From Acholeplasma laidlawii PG-8A (GTDB taxonomy: Bacteria; Bacillota_I; Bacilli_A; Acholeplasmatales; Acholeplasmataceae), in NCBI RefSeq assembly GCF_000018785.1, contig NC_010163.1:450001-482000 (forward strand): 32,000 bases of DNA, written 5' to 3'. The position numbers and the translations under genes were made by a program. Below, one piece after another: positions 953 through 27,481 of the stretch (position 1 is its first letter; each line of letters opens with the position of its first letter). The notes under the pieces are model-generated. The model made no database searches and was not told the origin of the DNA. It was given only the letters and a program-made list of their open reading frames with translations.

Positions 953-2596
953 ATGGCAATTTTATTTAACGATTTACCAATATTAGATACAACAAAAGTA
1001 GCATTAGAAAAATTAGGTTTTACTGAAGCTACACCAATACAGGAACAAGCAATTCCAAAGATGATTTTAGGTTTAGACTTAATCGGTCAAGCTCAAACAG
1101 GAACAGGAAAGACATTTGCTTTTGGCATACCGATGGTCGAAAAAACTGATACATCCTTAAGACAAACTCAAGGTTTAATTTTAACTCCAACTAGAGAATT
1201 AACAAATCAAGTGTACAAAGAGATTATTAAATTAGTGAAGTTTTACCCAGAATTAAGAGTTACAACCATCGTTGGTGGTGAGTCCTATGAAAAACAATTC
1301 AAGGAACTAGACAGAAAACCACATATCATTGTTGCAACACCAGGACGTATTATTGATCATATCGATCGAGGTACAGTGGATTTATCACACATTACAACAC
1401 TTACATTAGATGAAGCTGATGAAATGTTAAAAATGGGTTTCCAAGATGATATCGAACGCATTCTACAAACAACACCAGAAACACGTCAAACTGTATTATT
1501 TTCTGCAACAATGCCAGCATTTATTAAAAAGATAGCTAAAAACTATCAAAAAAATCCTGAGCTTATTAAAATTGAAGCAAAAAGTTTAACAGTTGATCGT
1601 ATTACTCAAGCTTACTTCTTAGTTAAAGAAAAAGAAAAACAAAGTTTATTAGAACGTCTATTAGATTTTGAAAATCCATCAACTGCAATTATTTTTGTGA
1701 ATACAAAAGCAGGTGCGGATAGAATTACTGAAAGTTTACAAAAAGCAGGATTTACTGCGGATGCACTTCATGGTGACTTAAAACAATCACAACGTACATA
1801 CGTTATGAATCGTTTTAGAAGTAAACAACTATCTATCTTAGTAGCAACAGACGTTGCAGCTAGAGGGTTAGACGTTGATGATGTTGAAATTATTGTAAAC
1901 TATGATTTACCTCAACAAGATGAAATCTATGTTCACCGTATTGGCCGTACAGGTCGTGCTGGTAAAAAAGGTAAAGCATTCACATTTGTTACACCACTTA
2001 AACGTCGTATGTTAGATATGTTAGCTCACTACACTAAAGCAGATATTAAACGCTTAGAAGTGCCAACAGCTGATGATGTTTACAAAGAACAACTTAAAAC
2101 ATTTAAACATAAAATTAAAACTGAACTAGCAAATGAATATCCAAACCATTTAGAAGCTATTAAAGAATTATTAGTGGATGAAGGTTCTAAGGATCAACTA
2201 TTAAATTACTTACTAGACAGCATGCTGCCTACTAAAAAAACTTACGAAACAATTGAAATCATTCCTGAAAAAGCATCAAGAAGAAGTCAAGATGAAAGAG
2301 GAAATGACAAAGGTAGAAAAGATTCAAGATCATCAAGAGATGCTTCACCAGCTCGTGGCAGTGGCCAATATGTTGACTTCACTCTAAATATCGGTAAAGC
2401 AGATGGACTAACACCTCCGACACTATTTAAATTCATGGAAAAAGAATATGGTATCTTCTCTAAAAATATTGGCGATATTAGACACCATAAAAACGAAACA
2501 GTTTTCGGACTTAGAAAAGATTCTGTAAGACGTCTTAATGCAAAAAAAGAAGTGAATTATAAAGGTAGAAAAGTAGTTATCAAAACATTAAACTAA
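953..2596 (+). CDS. DEAD-box ATP-dependent RNA helicase (DeaD/CsdA-like, with a C-terminal DbpA-type RNA-binding domain)
   Basis: Q motif GFTEATPIQ, motif I AQTGTGKT, Ia PTRELT, II DEAD, III SAT, VI HRIGRTGRAG. An R/S/K-rich linker is followed by GQYVDFTLNIGKADGLTP..., typical of the DbpA RBD. Confidence 0.93.
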   Translation: MAILFNDLPILDTTKVALEKLGFTEATPIQEQAIPKMILGLDLIGQAQTGTGKTFAFGIPMVEKTDTSLRQTQGLILTPTRELTNQVYKEIIKLVKFYPELRVTTIVGGESYEKQFKELDRKPHIIVATPGRIIDHIDRGTVDLSHITTLTLDEADEMLKMGFQDDIERILQTTPETRQTVLFSATMPAFIKKIAKNYQKNPELIKIEAKSLTVDRITQAYFLVKEKEKQSLLERLLDFENPSTAIIFVNTKAGADRITESLQKAGFTADALHGDLKQSQRTYVMNRFRSKQLSILVATDVAARGLDVDDVEIIVNYDLPQQDEIYVHRIGRTGRAGKKGKAFTFVTPLKRRMLDMLAHYTKADIKRLEVPTADDVYKEQLKTFKHKIKTELANEYPNHLEAIKELLVDEGSKDQLLNYLLDSMLPTKKTYETIEIIPEKASRRSQDERGNDKGRKDSRSSRDASPARGSGQYVDFTLNIGKADGLTPPTLFKFMEKEYGIFSKNIGDIRHHKNETVFGLRKDSVRRLNAKKEVNYKGRKVVIKTLN

Positions 2597-2621
2597 ATAG
2601 CACATTCGTGCTATTTTTTTT
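2596..2621 (+). terminator. Rho-independent terminator
   Basis: Stem aatagcac / gtgctatt, loop attc, followed by T8. Confidence 0.8.
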
Positions 2622-2766
2622 GTTATACATATATCAGATGTGATTACCGAGGTATAAAAGACTGTTCATAATCAGGCCTTCTTTTAATGGATAATTAAAT
2701 ATTATAAGTACTTAGTAGTTATTATCACGAATTTATCATCAATTTAGTGAAATAATCATCAAAAAA

Positions 2767-2775
2767 TGATACAAT
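2767..2775 (+). promoter_or_regulatory. Candidate extended -10 (TGaTACAAT) for the SMC-like operon
   Basis: TG-n-TACAAT lies 32 nt upstream of the TTG start. There is no good -35. Confidence 0.35.
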
Positions 2776-2806: not shown

Positions 2807-4180
2807 TTGCATCTATTTGATAATATCCCTGATACACTATTTAATGTCTTATCTTCTCCAAACAAACATATATACGTAGACTGTCTGTTTATCATATATG
2901 ATGCCACCAACTCAATTGAAAATGCGTTTCAAGGTGAACGAGGCTATGTGATTGATAAGTTAGTTGACTATTTTGATGAACTTAAAGAAGATTTTCAGAT
3001 GGGGGATAGTGAAGTCACTACTTCACGTCAAAAGTCTGTTTCTGTCATTAATGTATTAAAGCAAAATGGTTGGTTAGGTGAAGAAGAACTAGGGGATTAT
3101 AAAACATCTTTAAATTTATTCGATTACTCCATCAAAATTATTGATTTACTTAAAAGAATTCAAATGGGTGAAGAAAACGAGTATACCGGTGAAATTTACA
3201 CCGTGTACTCTCTTTTGTCATCTTTTGATATTTTAGATGGTTTAACTATTGTAGAACAAGCATATCAAAAGATTGAAGATGTCTTAAGGAAACTTAAAAC
3301 TTTAAAAGCAAACATTTACCGTTTTTACTTTGATTTAGTTAAAAAGGATAGAAAAGATGATTTACAAAAAGTTTTAGAAAAACTACTTATAGACTATAAA
3401 ACAAACTTCTTTGATAGTGCATATTATCATTTAAAAACGACAGATTCACTACCGAGATATAAACGTAGTATTTTAGAAAATATATCCTATATTTACCAAA
3501 ATGAAGGTTTTATGGAAACTATGGCAGAACAAGCACTAACAAAAAGAAAAGCACTTCAATATAATGATGCATATAACTATGTTGAAGAACGTATTCGCTA
3601 TATAAAAGATTCTATTGATGCCATTGAGTATTTAATTGAAGGTATTGATAATAAAAATGAATTATACATTAATGCTGCAGCATCTAAGATTATGTTTTTA
3701 ACTAACACATCAGAGGACTTAGAAGGCTTAATGAATCGTTTATTTAAGATTATATTAAGCGATAAAAAGGTAGATTATAGTCAAATATTTAACCTTTTTA
3801 GAGCTAGAAACTTAGATGAAAACTCGCTTCAGACAGTTAGAAGGCCAAGAGTGGATGCTGTTGCAGAGGAAATTGACTATAACCAAGATATCTCTGATGA
3901 GGTTAAGGAACGTAAGATGGCAAGCCTACTTAAGGCAAACTTATTTTCTAAAAAAGAAATTAACAACTATGTCACTTACTTACTAGGCGATGCACCAAGA
4001 ATATTAGCAAGTCATATTGAATTAGAATCAAACGATGATTTTGTTAAACTGATCTTAATCTTCTTATTTAGTAAATCAACAGGTATGGTTTACGATGTTA
4101 GATTATTAAATTATGATACGAGAATTGGACATATTAAATTTACTGATTTTGAAATCTTTGTTAAAGGAAAAAGCTTATGA
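2807..4180 (+). CDS. jetA: JetA/MksF-like (kleisin-type) subunit of an SMC-like complex; assignment is by context
   Basis: TTG start 8 nt after AGGAGG (2793-2798). 457 aa. The stop overlaps the next start (ATGA at 4177-4180). Its position and size match the first gene of jetABC / mksFEB operons. I could not verify any diagnostic motif by eye. Confidence 0.5.
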   Translation: MHLFDNIPDTLFNVLSSPNKHIYVDCLFIIYDATNSIENAFQGERGYVIDKLVDYFDELKEDFQMGDSEVTTSRQKSVSVINVLKQNGWLGEEELGDYKTSLNLFDYSIKIIDLLKRIQMGEENEYTGEIYTVYSLLSSFDILDGLTIVEQAYQKIEDVLRKLKTLKANIYRFYFDLVKKDRKDDLQKVLEKLLIDYKTNFFDSAYYHLKTTDSLPRYKRSILENISYIYQNEGFMETMAEQALTKRKALQYNDAYNYVEERIRYIKDSIDAIEYLIEGIDNKNELYINAAASKIMFLTNTSEDLEGLMNRLFKIILSDKKVDYSQIFNLFRARNLDENSLQTVRRPRVDAVAEEIDYNQDISDEVKERKMASLLKANLFSKKEINNYVTYLLGDAPRILASHIELESNDDFVKLILIFLFSKSTGMVYDVRLLNYDTRIGHIKFTDFEIFVKGKSL

Positions 4181-4815
4181 TGAACAAAAACCAAGCAATT
4201 AAAAAACTAAGTGAAGAGTTTGTAGTCTTAAAAGAAGCAGAAAAAACTGTTTTTTCTAGAATTGTAAACAAATTACTTCAAGTGAACTTCATCACCAGAA
4301 AAAAGATTGCTGATGCAAATGATTACCGTTTTGTATTAGCATATAAGGAAATATTTGAAGCCTATTTTTGTTTATCAGATTTTGAACTTATTATTGAGCG
4401 ACATGAAGAAGTCTTATATATCAAAAATATATCAAACTTTAATCACTTAAGACTTAGAAAAGCTGAAAGTATTTTATTACTAATTATTAGAATGTTATAT
4501 CAATCGAAGATGAATGTCATTACTTTGGATGAAAACGTTGAAATATACTTAAGTGAGGTTCATGATGAACTCACTAAAGTAGGTTACCTAGATAACAAAC
4601 GTATGACTAAAGAAACATTAAAACCTAGTCTTCAATTACTTAAGAGCTATAACATCATTGATTATATGGATAGTAAATTAAATGATGATGCAAGAATTAA
4701 GATATATCCAACGATTTTATATGTCATTAGAACAGACAGCATCAAAGAATTATTAGATCACATAGACGACTATGTTAAAGGGGGTAATGTAAATGAAGAA
4801 GTTGACGAAGATTAA
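4177..4815 (+). CDS. jetB: JetB/MksE-like small subunit; assignment is by context
   Basis: 212 aa, translationally coupled on both sides. Size, position and general pattern (YRF....K..FE.YF......L......EVLYI......N.LRL.K.ESILLLI.R.LY) are consistent with DUF4194-type proteins as I remember them. Confidence 0.5.
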   Translation: MMNKNQAIKKLSEEFVVLKEAEKTVFSRIVNKLLQVNFITRKKIADANDYRFVLAYKEIFEAYFCLSDFELIIERHEEVLYIKNISNFNHLRLRKAESILLLIIRMLYQSKMNVITLDENVEIYLSEVHDELTKVGYLDNKRMTKETLKPSLQLLKSYNIIDYMDSKLNDDARIKIYPTILYVIRTDSIKELLDHIDDYVKGGNVNEEVDED

Positions 4816-7800
4816 ACTGATTAATTGGCATTTGTTTACAGACCAAACCATTAAAATAGATGGTAATACATTAATCTCTGGTGAAAACGGTGCTGGTAAA
4901 TCAACATTACTTGACGCCTTACAATATTTATTAGTCGGTGGAAAATCCGGTGCTAAATTTAATATTGCAGCAACTGATGATGCCAAACGTACCCTTGAGG
5001 GTTACGTTCGTGGTCGTATTGGTGCTGAAAATAAAGAATTTATCCGTTCAGGGGATGTTATCACTCATGTTGCATTAGAGTTTTATGATGAACAAAGTGA
5101 TGAATTTGGTATTATTGGTGCAGTCTTAGAGTTACCTAAAATGGGTAACTTAAAAGAAAGATTTTACTTACTAGAAAACTTAAATCTTCATGATGGTATT
5201 TTTATGGATAAAAATACGCCAAGAGATTACCGCTCCATGAAAGCATATTTAAAAACATTATCGATTGATTTTATACCGTTTGATTCACAACGTCAATACC
5301 GTGATGCACTTGCTAAATACTTTGGTATTGATGCTAAAAAATACTCAAAAATATTACCTAAAGCACTGGCTTTTAGACCGATTGATTTACAATCATTTGT
5401 TTTTGAATTCTTATTAGACGATGAACCCATTGATATTCAAAGTCTAAAAAATAATGTGACACAACTTAAACGAGTTGAAGGTCAAATTCGCTTAGACAAG
5501 GAAAAATTAGAAAAATTAGAAAAAATTATTACTTTGGGTGAGTCTCTTAATCAAAACCTAGATCAAATTACAACCAATGAGTTAATTGATCAAATGGCAT
5601 TTATTGAAAAAAGAGAAACCTTTTTAAATCATTCTGAAAATTTACTGGATAAAGTGAATGCTAAATATGAAGTACTAAAACGTCAAAAAGATGATTTAGA
5701 TAGACAAATAACATCGAATGATGAAACGATTTTAGAACTTGAGACATCACGTCAAAATGATGATATCACTCGTACCCTTTCAAACCTAAAAGAACAACTG
5801 CATGCTAAGGGAAACCAGTATAATGAACAAAAAGTGATTGTCAGTGATTTAAAAGCAACTCTAAATAGAGAACTTGATTTATATAGAGACTTTGTGAATT
5901 TAAATCCAAATACACATATCTCAGCATTCCTAAAATATTATTCTGGTCACGAGGAAAATTCAAATATTTTAGAATTAAGCAGTTACATTGAAGGTGCACA
6001 ATCTGCAGCAAGTGGTTATTTAAATGCTTTAAGTGTAGAAAAATCTGAACTTGAAAAAGAAAGAAATAATATCTTAAATGAATTAAGGATTGCTGAAAAC
6101 AGATTAAATGCACTAAAAAGAAATGTCAAAACATATCCTAGAAATGTCCAATCCTTAATGGATGCTATTAATACAGAACTATCAAATTATTATAAAAAAG
6201 ATGTACGTGTGCGTGCTTTTTCAGATCTAATTGAAGTTAAGGATGAAGCATGGCGTGATGCATTAGAGGGTTACCTAAATACAAGACGTTTTGACTTGAT
6301 TATTGATCCACTATACTTTAATGATGCACTTGAAGTCTATGACCGTGTTAAAAATGAATTATCTATTTACGGTGTAGGGTTAGTCAATACTGCTAAAATC
6401 GGTGAATATACAACATGCTTACCAAATTCACTTGCTGCTAAAGTAACAACAGATCATCCTTATGCTAGAAACTATGTCAACATGACCATGGGGTATGTTG
6501 TCACAGTTGATAATTTAAGTGATTTAAAAAATCATCAAAGATCAATTACTAAGTCTGCAATGACTTATGCTAACCACACAGCAAGACAAATCAATCCAAG
6601 TCAATATCAAGTACCTTACATTGGTAATTCATCGACACAACTTCAAGTAGAAATGGATACTAAGTTAGTAGGTGAACTGACAAGTGATCTTAAACGTGTA
6701 TCCAATTTACTTGAGAAAAACCAAATGTCACTCAGATTATTACAACAATCTAAATTAGGACATATTGTATCTTCTAATCAAATTAGATACTTTGATAATA
6801 TTAAACAAACAAGAAAAGAATACATTGAACTAGAACAAAAAGTAGCGAATTTATCAAGTAATCCTAAGATTGCTGAATTAGAGTCACAACTTGATGAAGA
6901 GCGTAACAAGAAACGTCAACTACGTCTAGATTTTGAAAAGTTAGCTGATCAAATGGCTGATTTACGTAGTGAAAAAACACGTATTCTTGAACAAATTGAA
7001 GAATCACGAGATGCATTATCCAATTATTTAAAGGAACAAAAAGAGTGGAATCAAAAATATCCAACACTTTTACCGATAGCTTATAACCAGTTTAACGCAT
7101 TAAAAGTGAGATATCAGTCAAATTATGACTTGATTTCTAGAGATTTAGCACAATCTACAATTCAAATTAAATCTCAAAATGCACGTGCAGAAGCTGATGT
7201 TGTAAACTTAATGCGTGCATATATTATAAACTATCACTTTGGTGCTGCACCAGATCTATCAGAGCTCATTGAATTTGAAAAAGAGTATGTCTTGATTAAA
7301 GACAATAATTTAATGAAGTATGAACAAGAAGCAATTGACTTAAGAAAAGCTTCTGAAACCGGATTTAGAGAAGAATTTGTAGGTAAACTAAGAGCATCAA
7401 TTGAATCCGCTCAAATTCAAATTGCAGAACTTAACCAGGCCTTAACTGGAAAGCACTTTGGTACAGATAGTTATGAGCTTGTTACAAAACCATCAGAGAA
7501 TCCAGAGTTTAGAACATACTATGATATCATTATGGACTCTGATGCGGTAGCTAAACATACCTTATTTACAGAAAACCTATCTAAACGTAAAGAAATTATA
7601 TTAATGGAGTTATTTAATAAGATTGCTTCATTTGATCCTGAAAATGATAAGTTTGCATTACAATTTTTAGATTACCGCTATTACATGAGTTATGATATTG
7701 AAGTCACAAACGAAAATGGTAACAAATCATACTTTAGTAAGGTAAGTAAAGAAAAATCTGGTGGTGAGACTCAGGTACCATTCTATATTGTTATTGCAGC

Positions 7801-8059
7801 AAGTTTCCAACAACTATTAAGTAAAAATAAACGTATTGATGCGGGTTGTATGGTATTATTTGACGAAGCATTTAACAACATGGATGAGTCTAGAATTGAT
7901 GCGATGATGAAGTTCTATAACTCATTAAGTATTCAATTATTTATCGCAGTGCCACCTCAAAGGGTAAGTAACATTGTAAACTATGTGACAACATCACTAG
8001 CGATAGTTAAAGATAACGATTTTGCAATTGTAGAGGCATTCAAAAGAGAGGTTATTTAA
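4793..8059 (+). CDS. jetC: JetC/MksB-like SMC-family ATPase
   Basis: SD AGGGGG upstream of ATG 4793. KLINWHLF...GENGAGKST Walker A (4880-4906), FNIAA..RTLEGYVRG, and long K/E/L/Q heptad-rich arms around a globular middle. C-terminal SGGETQ signature (7757-7774) and MVLFDEAF Walker B (7850-7873). 1088 aa. Confidence 0.8.
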   Translation: MKKLTKIKLINWHLFTDQTIKIDGNTLISGENGAGKSTLLDALQYLLVGGKSGAKFNIAATDDAKRTLEGYVRGRIGAENKEFIRSGDVITHVALEFYDEQSDEFGIIGAVLELPKMGNLKERFYLLENLNLHDGIFMDKNTPRDYRSMKAYLKTLSIDFIPFDSQRQYRDALAKYFGIDAKKYSKILPKALAFRPIDLQSFVFEFLLDDEPIDIQSLKNNVTQLKRVEGQIRLDKEKLEKLEKIITLGESLNQNLDQITTNELIDQMAFIEKRETFLNHSENLLDKVNAKYEVLKRQKDDLDRQITSNDETILELETSRQNDDITRTLSNLKEQLHAKGNQYNEQKVIVSDLKATLNRELDLYRDFVNLNPNTHISAFLKYYSGHEENSNILELSSYIEGAQSAASGYLNALSVEKSELEKERNNILNELRIAENRLNALKRNVKTYPRNVQSLMDAINTELSNYYKKDVRVRAFSDLIEVKDEAWRDALEGYLNTRRFDLIIDPLYFNDALEVYDRVKNELSIYGVGLVNTAKIGEYTTCLPNSLAAKVTTDHPYARNYVNMTMGYVVTVDNLSDLKNHQRSITKSAMTYANHTARQINPSQYQVPYIGNSSTQLQVEMDTKLVGELTSDLKRVSNLLEKNQMSLRLLQQSKLGHIVSSNQIRYFDNIKQTRKEYIELEQKVANLSSNPKIAELESQLDEERNKKRQLRLDFEKLADQMADLRSEKTRILEQIEESRDALSNYLKEQKEWNQKYPTLLPIAYNQFNALKVRYQSNYDLISRDLAQSTIQIKSQNARAEADVVNLMRAYIINYHFGAAPDLSELIEFEKEYVLIKDNNLMKYEQEAIDLRKASETGFREEFVGKLRASIESAQIQIAELNQALTGKHFGTDSYELVTKPSENPEFRTYYDIIMDSDAVAKHTLFTENLSKRKEIILMELFNKIASFDPENDKFALQFLDYRYYMSYDIEVTNENGNKSYFSKVSKEKSGGETQVPFYIVIAASFQQLLSKNKRIDAGCMVLFDEAFNNMDESRIDAMMKFYNSLSIQLFIAVPPQRVSNIVNYVTTSLAIVKDNDFAIVEAFKREVI

Positions 8060-8064
8060 CCCTA

Positions 8065-9777
8065 ATGACAAAACTTAAAGGTAATGGTGTATCCAGTGGT
8101 ATAGCAATTGCTAAGGTACATCAATTCAAACTAAATAACATGTTTGCAATGAATAAGTATGCAACCGACAAAGCATTTGAAATCAAGCGCTTAGGGGATG
8201 CACTTTATAAAGCAGATAAGGAACTTGAAAATCTAACCAAGCAAGCTGAAGAAAGAATTGGGGTTGAACATGCCCAAATCTTTAGTGCGCAACAAATGAT
8301 GATTAATGACCCTGAAATGATAAAAAATGCGCATGTTAAAATAAATGACTTTAATCTAGATGCTGCCTACGCATTTAAGCAAACTATGAGTGAAATGATA
8401 GATATGTTTGAGTTAAGTGATAATCCATACATTAAGGAACGTATCTCTGATTTAGAAGATATTTCAAATAGAGTATTACATATTTTAAGTGGAAAAACGC
8501 ATAGTCTTTATGTGTTTAATGAAGATGTGATACTTGTAGCAACAGACTTAGTCCCTTCAGAAACAATCAATTTAGACACAACTTTTATTAAAGGTATTGT
8601 CATTGAAAAAGGATCTAAAACAAGTCACTCAGCAATTCTTGCACGTAATTTAGGTATTCCTGCAATTACGGGTGTTGATGTAAGTAAAATACATCACGAC
8701 ACACTTGCAATCATTGATGGACACACAGGGGATATTTTATTAGAACCTAGTGAAGATACCATCAAAACATACCAAACTAAACAGCAAGAAGCACTTAAAT
8801 TACAATCAACGTATGAAACAATAAAAGACCTTAAAACAGCAACCATAGACAATCATGAAGTCCATTTAGCTGCAAACATTGGTGTTGATTTAGACATTCA
8901 AGAAGCACTAGATGCTAATGCTTCAGGTATTGGTTTATTACGTACAGAAAACCAGTATTTAGAATCTGATGATTTTCCAACCGAAGATGAACTATTTATC
9001 TTCTATGAAAAGGTAGCAACATCATTTGAAACTAATGAAGTCACTATTAGAACGCTTGATATTGGTGGCGATAAAAACTTAAGTTACCTCAATATGCGTA
9101 AAGAATTAAACCCATTTTTAGGTAATAGAGCAATCAGATATAGCCTAAGTTATCCATCATTATTTAAAACTCAGCTTCGTGCTATCTTACGTGCTAATAC
9201 ACATCAAAATATTAAAGTCATGTTTCCAATGATTTCAACTTTAAAAGAACTCATGGATGCGAAGAAGATACTAGATGAAACTTATCAAGCATTAAAGATT
9301 GAAGGACATGAAGTAAATTATCCAAAGATTGGTATGATGGTTGAAGTACCATCCGCTGCACTTGGTATAGAAAAGTTTTTACCACATATTGATTTCATCA
9401 GTATTGGAACCAATGACCTGATTCAATACATGTTTGCAGCAGATAGAATGAATGAACGTGTAGCATATCTTTATCAACCATATAATCCAATTCTTTTGTC
9501 CACCATCAAATCTATGATTGACAAGACTAATAAGCATGGTATAATAGTTAGCGTGTGCGGTGAAATGGCTGGCCATAAAGCTCAAAGTTTACTACTTATT
9601 GGCTTAGGTATCAAACATTTAAGCATGCATGCAAACTTAATTTTAGAAAACAAATACTTGATTTCTAAAACAACTTATAAGGCACTAGAAGAAATTGCCG
9701 AAAAAGCATTATTACTAGATCACCCTTACGAAGTTGAAGCACTTATAAATACATATATTAAAGGACTTAAATATTAA
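8065..9777 (+). CDS. ptsI: Phosphoenolpyruvate-protein phosphotransferase (PTS Enzyme I)
   Basis: GSKTSHSAILARNLGIPAITG (phospho-His), RTLDIGGDK, NPFLGNRAIR, MFPMI, MMVEVPSAA, SIGTNDLIQY, VCGEMAG (catalytic Cys). 570 aa. Confidence 0.95.
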   Translation: MTKLKGNGVSSGIAIAKVHQFKLNNMFAMNKYATDKAFEIKRLGDALYKADKELENLTKQAEERIGVEHAQIFSAQQMMINDPEMIKNAHVKINDFNLDAAYAFKQTMSEMIDMFELSDNPYIKERISDLEDISNRVLHILSGKTHSLYVFNEDVILVATDLVPSETINLDTTFIKGIVIEKGSKTSHSAILARNLGIPAITGVDVSKIHHDTLAIIDGHTGDILLEPSEDTIKTYQTKQQEALKLQSTYETIKDLKTATIDNHEVHLAANIGVDLDIQEALDANASGIGLLRTENQYLESDDFPTEDELFIFYEKVATSFETNEVTIRTLDIGGDKNLSYLNMRKELNPFLGNRAIRYSLSYPSLFKTQLRAILRANTHQNIKVMFPMISTLKELMDAKKILDETYQALKIEGHEVNYPKIGMMVEVPSAALGIEKFLPHIDFISIGTNDLIQYMFAADRMNERVAYLYQPYNPILLSTIKSMIDKTNKHGIIVSVCGEMAGHKAQSLLLIGLGIKHLSMHANLILENKYLISKTTYKALEEIAEKALLLDHPYEVEALINTYIKGLKY

Positions 9778-9788: not shown

Positions 9789-9877
9789 GGAACAATACTC
9801 AAGAGGCTGAAGAGGCACGCTTGGAAAGCGTGTAGGGTGTAATAGCCGCGAGGGTTCAAATCCCTCTTGTTCCGCCA
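9789..9877 (+). tRNA. tRNA-Ser (anticodon GGA), CCA encoded
   Basis: Acceptor GGAACAA/TTGTTCC, anticodon stem CACGC/GCGTG with loop TTGGAAA, long variable arm, T-arm GAGGG-TTCAAAT-CCCTC, G discriminator plus CCA. 89 nt. Confidence 0.9.
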
Positions 9878-9926
9878 TAATTTAACAATAGTGTTGATAC
9901 AATAGTATCGACCTTACAGTATACGA

Positions 9927-9951
9927 AAATAGGGAGAATATCCCTTTTTTC
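9927..9951 (+). terminator. Rho-independent terminator after tRNA-Ser
   Basis: aggga (9931-9935) / tccct (9941-9945) followed by T6. Confidence 0.65.
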
Positions 9952-10096
9952 TTTATAATAATACCGTTCTATTATAGGTTTCGCTTTGTGAGTTTAAACG
10001 CGCTATCAAAAATGTTAGTATAAAAACACAAATGGTCAATATAAAACACGAAAGCATAACACAAAAAACGATTGATTAAACTAAATTTGAATAGCT

Positions 10097-10120
10097 ATAT
10101 TGTGCCGATAACGGCATAAT
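10097..10120. promoter_or_regulatory. Operator repeat 1 (atattgtgccgataacggcataat)
   Basis: A perfect 24-nt copy of the sequence at 10152-10175. It contains the inverted repeat tgccg-ataa-cggca and abuts the -35. Confidence 0.7.
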
Positions 10121-10121
10121 G

Positions 10122-10150
10122 TTGACTTAGCGAATAAACTATGATATACT
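10122..10150 (+). promoter_or_regulatory. Sigma-70/SigA-type promoter of the fic operon
   Basis: TTGACT (10122-10127), 17-nt spacer, TATACT (10145-10150). Confidence 0.7.
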
Positions 10151-10151
10151 G

Positions 10152-10175
10152 ATATTGTGCCGATAACGGCATAAT
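10152..10175. promoter_or_regulatory. Operator repeat 2 (atattgtgccgataacggcataat)
   Basis: A perfect 24-nt copy of 10097-10120. It begins 2 nt after the -10 and covers the predicted transcription start. Confidence 0.7.
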
Positions 10176-10189
10176 AGGAAGGTGAAGTA

Positions 10190-11110
10190 ATGGAATACAA
10201 AAACATATCTTATTTTGCTACTAAATGGAATATTAAAGAAAGAAGAATTAGAGTACTTTGCACAGAAGGTAGAATACATGGTGTGAAAAAAGTTGGTAAA
10301 ACTTGGTTAATCCCAGAAGATGCTCAAAAGCCTATTGATAAAAGATATCGACAAGTTAATGACTTGTTCTTTGATTCAATAGATTTTAGTATTATTGATG
10401 AAAAAAAGGATACAATTGATTCCCATCGACCATTCTCTCAAAACATGACTAGACAATTAAGAGATAAATTAATTATTGAATGGACTTATAATTCTAATGC
10501 AATTGAAGGTAATACACTTACTTTATCAGAAACAAAAGTAGTCTTAGAAAACGGCATAACAATTAAAGGAAAACCATTAAAAGATCATTTAGAGATAATT
10601 AATCATAAAGAAGCAATTGAATACATTGAAGACCTAGTCAGTAAAAACGTTAAACTTTCAGAATATGATATTAAAGCTGTTCATTATTTAATTTTGAAAG
10701 AGATTGATTCTACTAATGCTGGTAAATATAGACAAGAAAATGTGTTTATCAGTGGTGCTAAGCATGTGCCATCAGTATACTTAAATGTTCCATATGAAAT
10801 GCAGAAAATGATTGAAAAATATCAAAGTTGGAAAGATTTACACCCTGTAGTAAGGGCTTGTTACTTACATGGAGAGTTCGTAAAAATACACCCATTTATC
10901 GATGGGAATGGTAGAACAGCAAGACTTTTATTAAATTTTGAACTCATTCAAAGTGGCTATCCACCCGTCGTAATCAAAACAGAGAATAGAGCGGATTATT
11001 ATGATACACTAGATAAAGCGCATACAACAAATAATTATACAGATTTTATTAAAATTATTGTTGACTTGGTTAATGAGTCAGAGAATTTATACTTATATTT
11101 GATAGGTTAA
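10190..11110 (+). CDS. Fic/DOC family protein with an N-terminal HTH (class II, intramolecular inhibitory helix)
   Basis: Fic motif HPFIDGNGRTAR (10889-10924). Inhibitory motif S-N-A-I-E-G (10493-10510), matching [S/T]xxxE[G/N]. The N-terminal about 45 aa (ISYFATKWNIKERRIRVLCTEGRIHGVKKVGKTWLIPEDA) resemble an excisionase/MerR-type HTH. Confidence 0.9.
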   Translation: MEYKNISYFATKWNIKERRIRVLCTEGRIHGVKKVGKTWLIPEDAQKPIDKRYRQVNDLFFDSIDFSIIDEKKDTIDSHRPFSQNMTRQLRDKLIIEWTYNSNAIEGNTLTLSETKVVLENGITIKGKPLKDHLEIINHKEAIEYIEDLVSKNVKLSEYDIKAVHYLILKEIDSTNAGKYRQENVFISGAKHVPSVYLNVPYEMQKMIEKYQSWKDLHPVVRACYLHGEFVKIHPFIDGNGRTARLLLNFELIQSGYPPVVIKTENRADYYDTLDKAHTTNNYTDFIKIIVDLVNESENLYLYLIG

Positions 11111-11129
11111 TAAGGAAGGGGGTTATACA

Positions 11130-11552
11130 ATGACTGGTGATATTTTAAAACTATTGTCAGAGTTAAATTGGAATAATAAAGAAAAACAAACTATAGCGAT
11201 TAAGGTATTATCAAGTAGGAAAGATTATAATTTTAAAATGCTAATTGCACCATTACAAAATGAATTTTATGAGAATCAAGGAATTTGGTGGAAAGATATT
11301 GCTTTAGGTTGTGCTATTGTACTAAGTAATAAGTCCGATAGTGAAATAATTAACTTATTACCCGATCTTCTAGTTTGGTTACAAGATTTGAATTGGCCGG
11401 GTGCAGTCGAAGTTTTCGAAAGGCTAAAGAAAATCCCATATTTATTAATAAAAAAATATTTGAATGATACGATTTATAAAGCACAAATAGAAAATGATGA
11501 TCAGTGGATTGAATGGTTAACCCTGCTTAATAAAAGTCTTCTGACTCTATAG
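11130..11552 (+). CDS. Small cytoplasmic helical protein, DUF5071-like (from memory)
   Basis: Strong SD AAGGAAGGGGG. 140 aa. The motif LVWLQDLNWPGA resembles what I recall for DUF5071. No catalytic motifs. Confidence 0.4.
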   Translation: MTGDILKLLSELNWNNKEKQTIAIKVLSSRKDYNFKMLIAPLQNEFYENQGIWWKDIALGCAIVLSNKSDSEIINLLPDLLVWLQDLNWPGAVEVFERLKKIPYLLIKKYLNDTIYKAQIENDDQWIEWLTLLNKSLLTL

Positions 11553-18192: not shown

Positions 18193-19269
18193 ATGTTCAT
18201 TAAATCTATGATTAAGGGTCTATTTTTTAATATGAACCCTTTATTTGAACGTAATAAGCATGACATTATACGTTACAATAAACAACTAATACCTATCGCA
18301 TTTATTTTTTCATTGGTTACTATTTTAATCCCAATGTTTTTTTCACTATTTAGACCATCCATGCTAGAAACCTTACCGGCTTATCTAGTTATATTTAGTG
18401 TTTTTATACTTTTACTTATCCTATTTAACTTTAAACCATTTCATGAAAAACCTTTAGTGTTTGCTTATACATTTGGTATTGTTTTCTTTATATTTGTAGT
18501 ATACCTAAGTATAGATAGATTTCAATCTAGACCAGCTGGTACTGCACTCATATTCTTTGTTGTTGCACCTATAATATTTGTAGATAAACCATATAAGATA
18601 AACATCTATTTAGTGTTAATGTTTATTATTCATACGATATTATCTTTTCAATATAAGACGTTTGATATAGCCTCAGTTGATTTATTAAACACATTTATCA
18701 GTCTTGTAGCTGGCATGTTATTTGGTAGAATCTTCTTAGTCACTAGATTGAAAAATTTTGATATACACAGAGCACTTTTAATAGAAAGAGAAACAGACTT
18801 TTTAACAGGTCTACCAAACCGCCGATCACTATTTGAATATGCTCAAAAAGATACATTTAAGGCATATAATTATATGGGTCTTATGATGTTTGATATAGAC
18901 CGTTTTAAAAAGTATAACGATAACTATGGTCACTTAAATGGCGATCAAGTACTTACAGAATTTGCACGACTATTAGAAGTGTTTTCTAAAACATACCCAG
19001 TAAAATTTTACCGATATGGTGGTGAGGAGTTTATTGGAATCACGTACAACCTAGATAAATTAGAAATCATCAACCTAGCAAATCATATTAAAATGGATAC
19101 CTTTAAATTGAAAGTACCGTTTGAACAAATCACTACAAGTATTGGTGTTACTGTTACAGATAAAACTGATAATATAGATATAAATGATTTGATAGAACAA
19201 GCAGATAAAGCATTATACTCTGGTAAAAACAGTGGTAGAAATAAAGTGATTTTTTACGAGAAAAAATAA
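18193..19269 (+). CDS. Membrane-bound diguanylate cyclase (GGDEF domain)
   Basis: About 6 N-terminal TM helices, then DFLTGLPNRR, FDIDRFKKYNDNYGH, YRYGGEEF and ADKALYSGKNSGRN. There is no RxxD I-site directly upstream of GGEEF. Confidence 0.9.
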   Translation: MFIKSMIKGLFFNMNPLFERNKHDIIRYNKQLIPIAFIFSLVTILIPMFFSLFRPSMLETLPAYLVIFSVFILLLILFNFKPFHEKPLVFAYTFGIVFFIFVVYLSIDRFQSRPAGTALIFFVVAPIIFVDKPYKINIYLVLMFIIHTILSFQYKTFDIASVDLLNTFISLVAGMLFGRIFLVTRLKNFDIHRALLIERETDFLTGLPNRRSLFEYAQKDTFKAYNYMGLMMFDIDRFKKYNDNYGHLNGDQVLTEFARLLEVFSKTYPVKFYRYGGEEFIGITYNLDKLEIINLANHIKMDTFKLKVPFEQITTSIGVTVTDKTDNIDINDLIEQADKALYSGKNSGRNKVIFYEKK

Positions 19270-21011: not shown

Positions 21012-22472
21012 ATGAAAAAAATAATAACTATAATATTTTTGTCTAGTTTATTAGTTGTTTTAGTTGCTTGTAGTGGTAACTATAATGGGGGTTACCTTCA
21101 AGATGAGAACTATAATTATATTTTTAATGATGATGAACATCAAGAAATAATAGAAAATCCATTTATTGATGTTTCTGTGAATAATAAATCTAACATATCC
21201 TTAAGTGCAAACACTGCATCTTATTCGTTTATCAGATCTCAAATTAATAGCGGACGCGCAGTAGATCGTAATGCCGTACGCATTGAAGAAATGGTCAATT
21301 TCTTCAATTATAACTATAATCAACCTGAAACAGATAAAACATTTGGGTTTAAATCTGAACTTATCCAAACACCATGGAATAATGAAACCCATTTACTATT
21401 AATAGGTTTAGAAACTAAACAGGTTGATTTAGGTGATATACCATCCAATATTGTTATTTTACTGGATGTATCTGGTTCTATGAGTGCTACAAACAAACTT
21501 TCACTAGCTAAAAAAGCAATGGAGTTATTAATCGAACAAATGAAACCTAATGATGTGATATCACTTGTTACCTATTCATCTGGTGAAAAGGTGGTTTTTA
21601 AGGGTAAAAGTATAGATGATATGGCCTATATGACAAGTCAAATCAGACTCTTAAAAGCAAGTGGTTCAACCGCTGGTAAAAAGGGACTTGATATGGCCTA
21701 TAAGGTGGCAGAAGAATACTTCATTGAAGGTGGAAACAACCGCATTATTTTAGCAACAGATGGTGATTTTAACGTAGGTATTTCCAGTACAGATATGCTT
21801 ATTGAATATATTTCTGAGAAAAGAGAAAGTGGCATTTACTTTTCTGCATATGGTTTTGGTTATGGTAACTTTAAAGATGAGAAGTTAGAACGCGTAGCTA
21901 AGGCTGGTAATGGGACATATCACTATATTGATGACATCATATCAGCTAGAAAGGCTTTTGTGGATAACATAGATGGTGTTTTATATACCGTTGCACGTGA
22001 TGCAAAGGCTCAAATTGTATTTGATGCATCTGCAGTATTAGAGTATCGTTTGATTGGTTATGAGAATAGACAATTAACAGATGATGAGTTTGATGATGGT
22101 ACAACCGATGCTGGTGAAATTGGTACAGGTCTTCAAGTGACTGCAATTTATGAATTAAAACTCAATGAAGGTGCTAGTGATGTTGGATCATTAACGATTC
22201 GTTATAAAAACCATGACATTACGGATGATACCCAACTTGAAGAAGCATTTACTGTTTTAAATGCAATTAATGAAAACCCAAGTGTCGATGCAAAATTCAT
22301 TAGTAGTGTCGTAGAATTTGGTCTTATTTTAATGGATTCTAAATATAAAGTGGATGCGGATCTTGGTGCAGTATTAGAACGTATTGAAACAGAAACTTAT
22401 AATCTAGAAGATTATTACAGAAATGATTTTATAGATGTATTAAACACCTATAAAGATATGACAACTTCTTAA
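21012..22472 (+). CDS. von Willebrand factor type A domain lipoprotein (YfbK-like)
   Basis: Lipobox LVAC-S. The N-terminal segment SYSFIRSQINSGR..DRNAVRIEEMVNFFNYNY is typical of vWA N-terminal modules. MIDAS DVSGSM...S..T. SD AGGGAGGA. Confidence 0.85.
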   Translation: MKKIITIIFLSSLLVVLVACSGNYNGGYLQDENYNYIFNDDEHQEIIENPFIDVSVNNKSNISLSANTASYSFIRSQINSGRAVDRNAVRIEEMVNFFNYNYNQPETDKTFGFKSELIQTPWNNETHLLLIGLETKQVDLGDIPSNIVILLDVSGSMSATNKLSLAKKAMELLIEQMKPNDVISLVTYSSGEKVVFKGKSIDDMAYMTSQIRLLKASGSTAGKKGLDMAYKVAEEYFIEGGNNRIILATDGDFNVGISSTDMLIEYISEKRESGIYFSAYGFGYGNFKDEKLERVAKAGNGTYHYIDDIISARKAFVDNIDGVLYTVARDAKAQIVFDASAVLEYRLIGYENRQLTDDEFDDGTTDAGEIGTGLQVTAIYELKLNEGASDVGSLTIRYKNHDITDDTQLEEAFTVLNAINENPSVDAKFISSVVEFGLILMDSKYKVDADLGAVLERIETETYNLEDYYRNDFIDVLNTYKDMTTS

Positions 22473-23810: not shown

Positions 23811-24977
23811 ATGAATGTAGAAAATCTTTTTAGTATCATGATAGTTGTTTTCGCTGCAATTATAGCTTTATCACTAGCTGTAACACACCGTTATGTGAAA
23901 ACAATTTATCGGGGCATAAATTTTTTAGCCATGGGTGTAGTGGGGCATATTATCGGATTTATAATTTATATTGGTCTTTATATACAGACTGATTGGATCA
24001 AATACTTTATTGGAAATGGTATCTTTTTATCAGGTACTTTTTTGCTGCATAAAGGTTTAAACCAGTTTATGGAACGAGAAGTGAGTTACAAAAGAGCATA
24101 TAGTATCTTAAGCATTGGCGTTATTCTTGGTATCTTATTTTTCTTTTTTGAACCTAATTTAGTGTATCGTCAAAACTTAATCTCGTTTTTAATTATTTAC
24201 CTTGTGGTAGAGATATTAAATAGTGTCATTAAATCTACCGATAAAATAAAAGCTACCCTAAAGTTTCCAATCTATGTATTTTGTACACTATTTCTACTAC
24301 TTATGATGGCACGCTTTATCGCAGTGAATAATCATATAATATTAGAATTGATTCCAGGCCAAGACTTTACTTATAATTTTTTATCAAATATTATTGGTGG
24401 TATCTTATTTGTAGTATTAGGTTTTATGATTTCTGTAATTATTAATATTAGAGCAATAACCGATTTGAAAATAGAACGTGCCCTAATGGAAAAAATCTCA
24501 GTAACAGATCACTTAACTGGTTTACCAAACCGTTTAGCTTTAGAAAAGTATGTATCTAAAATAGAACATAATGGTCAACCTTATGCAGTCATCATTGCAG
24601 ACATTGATGAATTTAAGAAAATAAATGATACCTATGGTCATATGATTGGTGATAAAGTAATTGTAGAATTTTCTAAAGCGTTACTTAATTTAAATGATGA
24701 TCGTATGTTTACAGCAAGATATGGCGGTGATGAATTTGTCACAATTGTTAAACGCTTTGAATCAGTAGACACATTAAAGAGTAATATTGCTAAGACAATT
24801 AGTACGATAGGCACACAAATTAAAGTCAATGAGCATCATTTTAATTTAACCCTCTCAGTTGGTGTTGCAATCTATCCTCATCATGGTACTGAAATTTATG
24901 AACTTATTCATAAAGCAGATGCAGCTTTAGGGGATATTAAAACAAGTGGTAAAAACAGTATAAGGTTTTATGTATAA
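23811..24977 (+). CDS. Membrane-bound diguanylate cyclase (GGDEF domain)
   Basis: About 6 TM helices, then DHLTGLPNRL, ADIDEFKKINDTYGH, ARYGGDEF and ADAALGDIKTSGKN. Confidence 0.9.
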   Translation: MNVENLFSIMIVVFAAIIALSLAVTHRYVKTIYRGINFLAMGVVGHIIGFIIYIGLYIQTDWIKYFIGNGIFLSGTFLLHKGLNQFMEREVSYKRAYSILSIGVILGILFFFFEPNLVYRQNLISFLIIYLVVEILNSVIKSTDKIKATLKFPIYVFCTLFLLLMMARFIAVNNHIILELIPGQDFTYNFLSNIIGGILFVVLGFMISVIINIRAITDLKIERALMEKISVTDHLTGLPNRLALEKYVSKIEHNGQPYAVIIADIDEFKKINDTYGHMIGDKVIVEFSKALLNLNDDRMFTARYGGDEFVTIVKRFESVDTLKSNIAKTISTIGTQIKVNEHHFNLTLSVGVAIYPHHGTEIYELIHKADAALGDIKTSGKNSIRFYV

Positions 24978-27340: not shown

Positions 27341-27481
27341 ATGGAAGGTTTTGATGTAAGTCTAGTTCCAACTATTTTCTTGGCATTTCAAGGCATTGTG
27401 ATTGGACTATTTGTTTTGGTACACATATTTCTAGGTAGAAAAAGAGGTGTTGTTAAAACGTTCCTGGTTTTTTATTGGTGA
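27341..27481 (+). CDS. 5' fragment (first TM helix, CvpA-like N-terminus) of the giant downstream gene, separated by a frameshift
   Basis: Strong SD AAGGGGAGGA (27325-27334) precedes ATG 27341. The 46 aa MEGFDVSLVPTIFLAFQGIVIGLFVLVHIFLGRKRGVVKTFLVFYW overlap the 5' end of the 27447 ORF and run into it if the T6 run at 27468-27473 is read as T5. Confidence 0.6.
   Translation: MEGFDVSLVPTIFLAFQGIVIGLFVLVHIFLGRKRGVVKTFLVFYW

What the first reader, a model, noticed from the sequence alone, without database searches (positions are those of the whole stretch)
2807..8059. JetABC / MksFEB-like SMC operon with no JetD/MksG nuclease gene
Three ORFs of 457, 212 and 1088 aa are translationally coupled: an ATGA overlap at 4177-4180 and a 23-nt overlap at 4793-4815.

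The third protein is clearly an SMC/Rad50-type ATPase. It has Walker A GENGAGKST at 4880-4906, a FNIAA...RTLEGYVRG segment, two long heptad-rich arms around a globular middle, the SGGETQ signature at 7757-7774 and Walker B MVLFDEAF at 7850-7873.

Gene order and sizes match JetA (DUF3375 kleisin-like), JetB (DUF4194) and JetC of Wadjet, which correspond to MksF-MksE-MksB. In described Wadjet systems a fourth gene, the JetD/MksG Toprim nuclease of about 380-400 aa, follows jetC and performs plasmid cleavage. Here the next gene, 5 nt downstream, is canonical ptsI, and no nuclease-like ORF occurs anywhere in the 32 kb.

Three readings are possible:
- a pure MksBEF-type condensin in a low-GC, Mollicutes-like genome;
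- a Wadjet variant whose effector is encoded elsewhere;
- a DNA-sensing SMC module that uses a different output.

I could not verify the two small subunits by motif, so they may be a divergent or undescribed family.
Basis: partly seen in the sequence, partly recalled or inferred. Interest (0 to 1): 0.8.

Follow-up and report, generated by a model that had tools for sequence, protein, structure and literature searches.

The report
Nuclease-less Wadjet SMC operon, inherited housekeeping
This is a complete JetA-JetB-JetC (Wadjet type I, MukBEF-like) DNA-folding motor with no cutting subunit, JetD; it is inherited vertically at one housekeeping locus across Acholeplasma relatives, and jetB-jetC persist even in tiny phytoplasma genomes, so it most likely organises the chromosome rather than destroying plasmids.

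Summary
Three coupled ORFs encode JetA (Pfam PF18982, 1e-76), JetB (DUF4194, 4e-32) and JetC (PADLOC JetC1, 1128 bits). ptsI starts 5 nt after jetC.

No JetD exists in the 32-kb window or in 5 kb further upstream. A JetD HMM found none in 85 related loci, while it recovered all five JetD controls.

The operon is not an insertion. jetABC sits in one syntenic housekeeping neighbourhood (dsbA/cshA upstream, ptsI/pepC downstream) in Acholeplasma, Alteracholeplasma, Haploplasma, Mariniplasma and dozens of MAGs. jetB-jetC persist in at least 10 phytoplasma species with genomes of 0.5-0.8 Mb.

The JetC tree mirrors taxonomy. ATPase motifs are invariant. dN/dS is 0.04-0.13, lower than for neighbouring cshA and ptsI.

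The nearest JetD-bearing relatives are Clostridia and Bacilli Wadjet I, some of which lie among defence genes.

A published COG table lists JetC but no JetD, ScpA or ScpB for A. laidlawii. A. laidlawii and phytoplasmas both carry plasmids.

Best reading: a domesticated, nuclease-free MksBEF-type condensin. The class is already known (MukBEF, Pseudomonas MksBEF, "several Wadjet members lack MksG"). This lineage, and a possible replacement of Smc-ScpAB, appears undescribed and is unproven.

The parts
2595..2616 (+). Terminator-like hairpin plus T-run that ends the upstream cshA (DEAD-box helicase) unit
   Evidence: 9-bp stem, T-tail; cshA domains
2747..2775 (+). Promoter-like site (GTGAAA-17-TACAAT with an upstream TG) in the 210-nt gap before jetA. 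Consensus match only.
   Evidence: sequence
2807..4180 (+). jetA: MukF/JetA-type kleisin, 457 aa, TTG start preceded by AGGAGG
   Evidence: Pfam JetA PF18982 1.3e-76 over profile positions 2-431 of 434. PADLOC JetA1 3.5e-94. The AlphaFold model shows an N-terminal winged helix, a helical bundle, a disordered linker and a C-terminal winged helix. All top 13 PDB matches are MukF or E. coli JetA.
4177..4815 (+). jetB: KITE subunit (DUF4194/MukE-like), 212 aa, ATGA-coupled to jetA
   Evidence: Pfam DUF4194 4.3e-32 and MksE 1.2e-6; PADLOC JetB1 3.6e-69; junction
4793..8059 (+). jetC: SMC-type ATPase, 1088 aa, start overlaps jetB by 23 nt
   Evidence: PADLOC JetC1 1127.9 bits over profile positions 1-1088 of 1097. 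Pfam AAA_29 and SbcC_Walker_B. Walker A, signature, Walker B and hinge residues are invariant in 10 homologues and intact in phytoplasmas. The PDB profile search hits JetC 8DK2 and MukB 3EUJ.
8065..9777 (+). ptsI (PTS enzyme I), 5 nt after jetC with no terminator between. Probably co-transcribed; not a subunit of the complex.
   Evidence: ptsI directly follows jetC in 12 related loci.
9931..9945 (+). First terminator-like hairpin downstream of the unit, after tRNA-Ser at 9789-9877

Best explanation
The three genes encode a complete but nuclease-free Wadjet-group SMC complex. JetC is the ATPase, with coiled-coil arms and a hinge. JetA is the kleisin that bridges the JetC heads and dimerises the complex. 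JetB forms KITE dimers on JetA. Shown here: the family identity of all three proteins, intact ATPase motifs, strong purifying selection, absence of jetD from this locus and from 85 related loci, and vertical, syntenic inheritance through Acholeplasmatales including genome-reduced phytoplasmas. Inferred: like MukBEF and Pseudomonas MksBEF, the complex loads on the chromosome and extrudes DNA loops using ATP, helping chromosome compaction and segregation. Without JetD it cannot carry out the plasmid-cleavage step of Wadjet. It descends from a JetABCD defence system that lost JetD and became a housekeeping gene set, transcribed together with ptsI. It may compensate for a missing or reduced Smc-ScpAB in this lineage; that last step rests only on a published COG table and is unproven.
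For: Identity: Pfam and PADLOC hits for JetA, JetB and JetC, and the JetA fold matches MukF/JetA.

No JetD: Pfam and PADLOC scans of the window ORFs found none, nor did the 10-kb flanks in L001. A JetD HMM built from four annotated JetDs recovers those four, and also the Alkaliphilus JetD that was not used to build it (8e-88). It finds nothing at E<=1 in the 85 Acholeplasmatales loci, of which 69 have at least 1.5 kb and 42 at least 5 kb downstream of jetC. COG4924 (JetD, per PMC8649781) has no row in the COG table for A. laidlawii PG-8A, whereas COG4913 (JetC) is present.

Housekeeping character: synteny is conserved as dsbA/cshA-jetABC-ptsI/pepC in four named genera and many MAGs. jetB-jetC sit among frr, cdsA, fakA, lepB, udg and rnhC in phytoplasmas with genomes of 511-762 kb. 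The JetC tree is monophyletic and follows taxonomy. JetC identity correlates with CshA identity (r=0.98) and exceeds it in 24 of 24 loci. dN/dS is 0.04-0.13, against 0.12-0.25 for cshA and ptsI. There is no conserved fourth gene.

Contrast: JetD-bearing relatives are contiguous JetABCD, and some lie on plasmids or beside other defence genes such as SIR2 and an SRA/McrA-like protein.

Plasmid tolerance: A. laidlawii 8195 keeps pNZ18 and an oriC plasmid intact (PMC10805103). Phytoplasmas often carry plasmids (PMC3322544).

Against: There is no functional data for this complex and no direct evidence that it acts on the chromosome. I could not scan the whole A. laidlawii genome, so absence of JetD elsewhere rests on a 2011 COG table, which has false negatives: it also lacks ScpA for M. 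gallisepticum. The same table lists COG1196 (SMC) for A. laidlawii, so a canonical SMC may coexist with this complex. Phytoplasma loci lack a recognisable jetA within 10 kb, which is awkward for a kleisin-dependent motor. dS values are close to saturation, so the dN/dS ratios are rough. Whether strain 8195, which tolerates plasmids, carries an intact jetABC was not verified.
Confidence: 0.65

Rival explanations
1. Nuclease-independent immunity: JetABC still senses small circular DNA but acts without cleavage, by silencing or sequestering it or by recruiting an unrelated nuclease or restriction system encoded elsewhere.
For: Its closest JetD-bearing relatives are anti-plasmid Wadjet I systems. 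A. laidlawii PG-8A is hard to transform and has five restriction systems. An evolved 8195 strain gained 200-300-fold in plasmid transformation from unidentified mutations.
Against: No fourth gene is conserved next to jetC in 72 loci. The locus is syntenic and vertically inherited, not a variable defence island. It is retained in obligate intracellular phytoplasmas that themselves carry plasmids. Replicative plasmids are maintained intact in A. laidlawii 8195.
Confidence: 0.15
2. Ordinary split Wadjet: a functional jetD is encoded elsewhere in the genome and the system still cleaves plasmids.
For: I could not search the whole 1.5-Mb chromosome. Only about 37 kb (the window plus L001) was inspected directly.
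Against: COG4924 (JetD) is absent from the published A. laidlawii COG inventory. No jetD lies within the flanks of any of 85 related loci (about 0.95 Mb of flanking sequence). In every JetD-bearing relative examined, jetD directly follows jetC. Phytoplasma genomes of 0.5-0.8 Mb keep jetBC.
Confidence: 0.05
3. An SMC-like DNA-repair or recombination factor (in the manner of RecN, SbcC or Smc5/6) rather than a chromosome-folding condensin.
For: SMC-family complexes are versatile. recX lies in the upstream flank of jetABC in several relatives and directly upstream in one clade. In phytoplasmas, udg and rnhC lie downstream.
Against: The subunit set (kleisin, KITE and SMC with a hinge) is that of loop-extruding Wadjet/MukBEF complexes, not of Rad50 or RecN. 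A. laidlawii already has RecN (COG0497). The neighbouring genes vary between lineages.
Confidence: 0.1
4. A decaying remnant of a defence system that has no function.
For: The effector gene is lost.
Against: All three ORFs are full length against their profiles. The ATPase motifs are invariant from Acholeplasma to phytoplasmas. dN/dS is 0.04-0.13. The genes are retained in genomes of about 0.5 Mb.
Confidence: 0.02

Closest known systems
Type I Wadjet / JetABCD (E. coli GF4-3, P. aeruginosa PA14, Bacillus cereus Q1; also called MksBEFG or EptABCD)
   Same: The three core families and gene order are the same: JetA PF18982, JetB DUF4194 and a JetC1-type SMC ATPase, translationally coupled. The JetA fold matches E. 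coli JetA 8AS8/8Q72, and JetC matches PDB JetC 8DK2.
   Different: There is no JetD Toprim nuclease. The locus is a fixed, syntenic housekeeping one, not a defence island or plasmid (against 51-54, 100, 101). It is only about 24-32% identical to JetD-bearing JetC proteins.
Pseudomonas aeruginosa MksBEF (nuclease-free Wadjet-group condensin)
   Same: A three-gene kleisin/KITE/SMC operon without MksG. [quoted passage not shown]
   Different: This is an independent lineage within PADLOC 'JetC1'/PF18982 type I sequences, in Mycoplasmatota. No functional data exist here. I did not compare sequences with P. aeruginosa MksBEF directly.
MukBEF of Enterobacteria
   Same: A Wadjet-group complex lacking MksG/JetD that became the housekeeping chromosome-folding machine (PMC7617805). 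MukF is the top structural match for JetA, and the MukB head matches the JetC profile.
   Different: The sequence relation is very distant: the Pfam MukB N-terminal hit is only 3e-4 and below its cutoff. MukBEF is known to have replaced Smc-ScpAB. Here replacement is only suggested, by a COG table in which ScpA and ScpB are absent but COG1196 is present.
Smc-ScpAB
   Same: The general architecture is shared: an SMC ATPase with a hinge, a kleisin and a KITE dimer.
   Different: It is not a member. TIGR02169 SMC scores 19.9 bits against a cutoff of 729, and JetA and JetB are not ScpA and ScpB.

Membership tests
Wadjet type I (JetABCD anti-plasmid system) | JetA kleisin subunit | tested here: met
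   PF18982 1.3e-76, full profile length; PADLOC JetA1 3.5e-94; model and fold search hit MukF/JetA
Wadjet type I (JetABCD anti-plasmid system) | JetB KITE subunit (DUF4194) | tested here: met
   PF13835 4.3e-32; PADLOC JetB1 3.6e-69
Wadjet type I (JetABCD anti-plasmid system) | JetC SMC ATPase with Walker A, signature and Walker B motifs | tested here: met
   PADLOC JetC1 1127.9 bits over the full length; motifs invariant
Wadjet type I (JetABCD anti-plasmid system) | JetD Toprim nuclease encoded in the operon | tested here: not met
   No JetD in the window, in L001 or in 85 related loci. The HMM recovered five positive controls.
Wadjet type I (JetABCD anti-plasmid system) | JetD anywhere in the same genome | not testable with these tools
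   There is no whole-genome access. Indirect evidence: COG4924 is absent from the published A. laidlawii PG-8A COG table.
Wadjet type I (JetABCD anti-plasmid system) | Restriction of small circular plasmids | not testable with these tools
   Literature only: plasmids pNZ18 and pAL1 replicate and are recovered intact in A. laidlawii 8195. The jetABC status of that strain was not checked.
Nuclease-free Wadjet-group condensins (MksBEF/MukBEF type) | Kleisin-KITE-SMC operon lacking MksG/JetD | tested here: met
Nuclease-free Wadjet-group condensins (MksBEF/MukBEF type) | Stable chromosomal, vertically inherited locus under purifying selection | tested here: met
   Synteny; tree; dN/dS and identity compared with neighbouring genes
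Nuclease-free Wadjet-group condensins (MksBEF/MukBEF type) | Demonstrated role in chromosome organisation or segregation | not testable with these tools
   Needs genetics, Hi-C or microscopy
Smc-ScpAB | Canonical SMC (TIGR02168/02169) with ScpA and ScpB partners | tested here: not met
   TIGR02169 scores 19.9 bits against a cutoff of 729.4; the partners are JetA and JetB

The most novel reading that the evidence does not exclude
In the whole Acholeplasmatales lineage, from free-living Acholeplasma to phytoplasmas, a Wadjet type I system that lost its nuclease has become the principal and perhaps only kleisin-containing SMC machine. It would then have replaced Smc-ScpAB, an independent replay of the MukBEF take-over in gamma-proteobacteria. 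In phytoplasmas it may even run without a recognisable kleisin gene beside jetBC. The evidence that leaves this open: ScpA (COG1354) and ScpB (COG1386) are absent from the A. laidlawii COG table although present in 14-15 other Mollicutes; a phytoplasma review calls the partitioning repertoire 'sparse' and doubts the 'smc' annotations; and jetBC are retained in genomes of 0.5-0.8 Mb.
Probability: 0.3. Interest if true: 0.75.

Novelty: new member of a known kind. Interest (0 to 1): 0.55.

Why it matters
Current reviews argue that SMC-based plasmid defence and chromosome condensins have interconverted during evolution: MukBEF and MksBEF are thought to descend from Wadjet. This locus offers a clean, dated example. 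An entire bacterial order carries a nuclease-free type I Wadjet at a fixed housekeeping position, with JetD-bearing relatives just outside the clade. Retention in phytoplasmas, whose genomes discard almost everything dispensable, argues that the complex is important there. It also gives a candidate for the chromosome-partitioning machinery that phytoplasma genomics has described as missing. A. laidlawii is culturable, now has plasmids, electroporation and Tn5 tools, and is a synthetic-genome target. The question of what a JetABC motor does without its nuclease, and whether it substitutes for Smc-ScpAB, is therefore directly testable.

Tried and rejected
1. NCBIfam gave no family-level hit for JetA or JetB and only sub-threshold ATPase hits for JetC, so it was uninformative.

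2. Single-sequence PDB searches for JetA and JetB found nothing. Profile and fold searches were needed instead.

4. The hunt for a phytoplasma JetA failed. HMMs found nothing within 10 kb. AT-rich JetA-like cluster representatives were unnamed. The best such group turned out to be ordinary JetABCD, one locus beside defence genes and the other cut off within jetC.

5. Supplementary Table 3 of Nucifora et al., which lists the mutations of the hyper-transformable strain, is not held. Data S1 of Burmann et al. contains no Acholeplasma names or accessions in the held text. Doron et al. 2018 is not held.

6. A look-up of the 1477-aa ORF, meant to extend the inspected region, failed because no gene with exactly that product is on record.

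7. The idea that the operon is an insertion between cshA and ptsI was rejected on synteny.

8. The idea that a downstream gene (pepC, ptsI, RNase J or lepB) is a substitute effector was rejected. These are ordinary housekeeping families and they differ between lineages.
Full report
**1.

The window has about 30% GC and reads in the standard code.

- ORFs lie at 2807-4180 (457 aa), 4177-4815 (212 aa) and 4793-8059 (1088 aa), exactly as stated.
- jetA starts at TTG, with AGGAGG 8 nt upstream.
- The jetA/jetB junction is ATGA. jetC starts 23 nt inside jetB, behind a GGGGG ribosome-binding site.
- ptsI begins 5 nt after the jetC stop.
- A terminator-like hairpin closes cshA at 2595-2616, and a promoter-like site lies at 2747-2775. 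The scan reports only one weak 5-bp hairpin inside jetC (6203-6216) and nothing between jetC and ptsI; the next terminator-like hairpin follows ptsI and tRNA-Ser. jetA-jetB-jetC-ptsI therefore looks like one transcription unit.

**2. What the proteins are**

- Pfam places ORF1 in JetA (PF18982, 1.3e-76, full profile) and ORF2 in DUF4194/JetB (4.3e-32, with a weaker MksE hit). ORF3 carries AAA_29 plus SbcC_Walker_B.
- PADLOC calls them JetA1 (3.5e-94), JetB1 (3.6e-69) and JetC1 (1127.9 bits, profile positions 1-1088 of 1097).
- NCBIfam shows that JetC is not a canonical SMC: TIGR02169 scores 19.9 bits against a cutoff of 729.
- An AlphaFold model of JetA (pLDDT 74) shows an N-terminal winged helix, a helical bundle, a disordered linker and a C-terminal winged helix. 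Its 13 best PDB matches are all MukF or E. coli JetA.
- A JetC profile hits PDB JetC 8DK2 and the MukB head 3EUJ.

The small subunits are therefore ordinary Wadjet type I parts, not a new family. JetA is PF18982/DUF5716, not DUF3375.

**3. No JetD**

- None of the other 19 ORFs of 80 aa or more that I scanned matches a JetD family in Pfam, and the ten of them also scanned with PADLOC match none there. They are PTS, helicase, Fic, methyltransferase, CLC channel, GGDEF, amylase, vWA, P-type ATPase and similar proteins.
- The source record is LS483439.1 (GCA_900476025.1), a 1,497,557-bp chromosome. Five further kb upstream also lack JetD.
- From memory this is A. laidlawii NCTC 10116. The size, GC content and nearest named relatives (A. 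granularum 86%, A. oculi 80%) fit that.
- I built a JetD HMM from four annotated JetDs taken from plasmid-borne JetABCD loci in Cohnella, Butyrivibrio, Rossellomorea and Erythrobacter. With all filters off it recovers those four and, later, the Alkaliphilus JetD (8e-88). It finds nothing at E<=1 in the six-frame translation of the window or of any related locus.

**4. The operon is ancestral and syntenic, not an insertion**

- The 120 best JetC homologues are at least 54% identical, and all named ones are Acholeplasmatales.
- Gene order in three complete or draft genomes:
  - Alteracholeplasma palmae: dsbA-cshA-jetABC-ptsI-pepC.
  - Haploplasma axanthum: secA-prfB-yitT-recX-...-dsbA-jetABC-cshA.
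  - Mariniplasma anaerobium: prfB-yitT-...-recX-...-dsbA-cshA-jetABC-pepC.
  - None has JetD within 10 kb.
- A scan of one genome per species found 505 relatives. The best 80 are all Acholeplasmatales.
- Across the 85 held loci:
  - 62 show A+B+C. The rest are cut contigs or phytoplasmas.
  - 69 have at least 1.5 kb and 42 at least 5 kb downstream of jetC.
  - The gene after jetC is pepC-like in 37 loci, ptsI in 12 and RNase J in 8.
  - The gene before jetA is cshA in 21, dsbA in 13, an EIIA gene in 6 and recX in 6.
  - No fourth gene is conserved.

**5. Phytoplasmas keep jetB-jetC**

- At least ten Candidatus Phytoplasma species carry full-length JetC (36-41% identical) and JetB (40-50%). They include P. 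oryzae (511 kb), P. fraxini (599 kb) and P. rubi (762 kb).
- In P. rubi the neighbours are frr, cdsA, fakA, a Cof-type HAD, then jetB and jetC, then lepB, udg, rnhC, HIT and hlyIII.
- All ATPase motifs are intact.
- No JetA is detectable within 10 kb, even with broad HMMs. Searches for a phytoplasma JetA elsewhere failed. This remains unexplained.

**6. Signs of selection and vertical descent**

- A JetC tree puts Acholeplasmatales and phytoplasmas in one clade whose branching follows taxonomy. JetD-bearing Bacillales and Clostridia lie outside it.
- Identity to A. laidlawii averages 59.8% for JetC, 58.3% for JetA and 63.1% for JetB, against 52.5% for CshA. JetC exceeds CshA in 24 of 24 loci (r=0.98) and PtsI in 8 of 8.
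- dN/dS is 0.04-0.13 for jetABC, 0.12-0.18 for cshA and 0.19-0.25 for ptsI. dS is near saturation, so these ratios are rough.
- Hinge and head residues are invariant across the ten aligned JetC homologues.

**7. Outgroups**

- The nearest JetA relatives outside the clade include a Haloplasmataceae MAG, a 1.49-Mb genome and a 3.2-Mb 'Mycoplasmatota bacterium'. All three have jetABC without jetD and are syntenic with one another.
- Alkaliphilus metalliredigens has contiguous JetABCD.
- In an AT-rich group, the one full locus held (L096) is JetABCD next to SRA/McrA-like and methyltransferase genes. The other (L097) lies near a SIR2 gene but is cut off within jetC.
- An Agathobacter rectalis replicon also has JetABC without JetD.
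- Loss of JetD has therefore happened more than once, or early in Mycoplasmatota. JetD-bearing relatives sit on plasmids or, in some cases, beside other defence genes, unlike this locus.

**8. Literature**

- No paper links Acholeplasma or phytoplasmas with Wadjet or Mks, apart from one unrelated mention.
- The class itself is known. [quoted passage not shown] - Table S12 of Fisunov et al. 2011 (PMC3139596) gives this inventory for A. laidlawii PG-8A:
  - Present: COG4913 (JetC), and in A. laidlawii alone among 16 Mollicutes.
  - No row at all: COG4924, which is JetD according to PMC8649781.
  - Absent: COG1354 (ScpA) and COG1386 (ScpB), although they are present in 14-15 other species.
  - Present: COG1196 (SMC-like), ParB, FtsK and RecN.
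- COG1196 also attracts unrelated coiled-coil proteins such as HMW2, and the table has false negatives. This evidence is therefore suggestive only.
- A phytoplasma review calls the chromosome-partitioning repertoire 'sparse' and doubts the 'smc' annotations. It also notes that phytoplasmas often carry plasmids.
- A. laidlawii 8195 maintains pNZ18 and an oriC plasmid intact. An evolved strain transforms 200-300-fold better through unidentified mutations.

**9. Interpretation**

The best-supported reading is a domesticated, nuclease-free Wadjet-group condensin of the MksBEF type. JetC dimers are closed by JetA, carry JetB, and use ATP to load on and extrude chromosomal DNA. Without JetD, whose aCAP domain docks on the JetC 'larynx' in E. 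coli JET, the cleavage step is gone.

- The identification, the absence of JetD from all inspected loci, and the vertical inheritance under purifying selection are shown.
- The chromosomal function is inferred from that conservation pattern and by analogy with MukBEF and MksBEF.
- Rivals are nuclease-independent immunity, a split Wadjet with jetD elsewhere, a repair role, and decay. All are less well supported but not all excluded. They are set out in the rival explanations.

**10. Verdict**

This is a new member of a known kind.

- For a specialist, the notable points are the order-wide fixation, the retention in phytoplasmas, and the open possibility that it stands in for Smc-ScpAB. I could not test that possibility directly.
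- It is ordinary in that JetD-less Wadjet-group operons are already recognised.
- Interest is moderate (0.55). It would rise if whole-genome searches confirm that Smc-ScpAB is absent.

Noticed in passing
L070, L072, L075-L077, L079-L081, L084, L085 (jetB at about 9.3-10.0 kb and jetC at about 10.0-13.3 kb of each locus): Ten phytoplasma species keep jetB-jetC among core genes (frr, cdsA, fakA, HAD, lepB, udg, rnhC). No recognisable jetA (kleisin) lies within 10 kb; a Cof-type HAD hydrolase occupies the upstream position. The kleisin is either elsewhere or lost.
   Followed up: partly
L092 4280-9537; L093 9001-14230; L094 9001-14204: A second JetD-less jetABC clade occurs in a Haloplasmataceae MAG and two other loci, one from a record named 'Mycoplasmatota bacterium'. 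JetC is 36-37% identical to that of A. laidlawii. The three loci are syntenic with one another: an MS channel gene upstream in two of them, an unknown ORF of about 296 aa on the opposite strand downstream, and PedC-like genes in all three.
   Followed up: partly
L091 1475-7067 (Agathobacter rectalis replicon); L090 1964-7423 (Salipiger plasmid): The Agathobacter locus is JetABC followed directly by a carbonic anhydrase gene, with no JetD. The Salipiger locus has a 790-nt unannotated gap after jetC, and the JetD HMM found nothing there.
   Followed up: partly
window 9789-11552: tRNA-Ser(GGA) at 9789-9877 is followed by two identical 24-nt repeats, ATATTGTGCCGATAACGGCATAAT, at 10097-10120 and 10152-10175. 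Each has a palindromic core, and they lie just upstream of a Fic/DOC gene (10190-11110; PADLOC PDC-S04 1e-37, SoFic 7e-34) and a DUF5071 gene (11130-11552). This may be an operator-controlled Fic toxin or defence pair at a tRNA-flanked spot.
   Followed up: partly
window 27447-31880: A 1477-aa ORF has hydrophobic N-terminal segments and no Pfam or PADLOC hit at the thresholds used. No gene with exactly this product is on record, so the true start probably differs.
   Followed up: partly
window 18193-19269 and 23811-24977: The window encodes two GGDEF diguanylate-cyclase-domain proteins, plus a vWA/YfbK protein at 21012-22472. Cyclic-di-GMP signalling genes are, to my recollection, unusual in Mollicutes.
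   Followed up: no
window 8057-8067, and 12 related loci (e.g. L002 13273, L042 13271): ptsI is packed against or overlaps the jetC stop, and there is no ptsH beside it. A central sugar-uptake gene therefore appears to depend on the jetABC transcript in the Acholeplasma/Alteracholeplasma branch.
   Followed up: partly
literature: PMC10805103 (A. laidlawii 8195 strain DN-E): An evolved strain gained 200-300-fold in plasmid electroporation efficiency through 27 substitutions listed in a supplementary table that is not held. This recalls the M. smegmatis ept (Wadjet) story, so it is worth checking for jetABC mutations.
   Followed up: partly
literature: PMC3139596 Table S12: The COG inventory lists A. 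laidlawii as lacking ScpA (COG1354) and ScpB (COG1386), which 14-15 other Mollicutes have. It is also the only one of the 16 with JetC (COG4913) and ParB (COG1475).
   Followed up: partly
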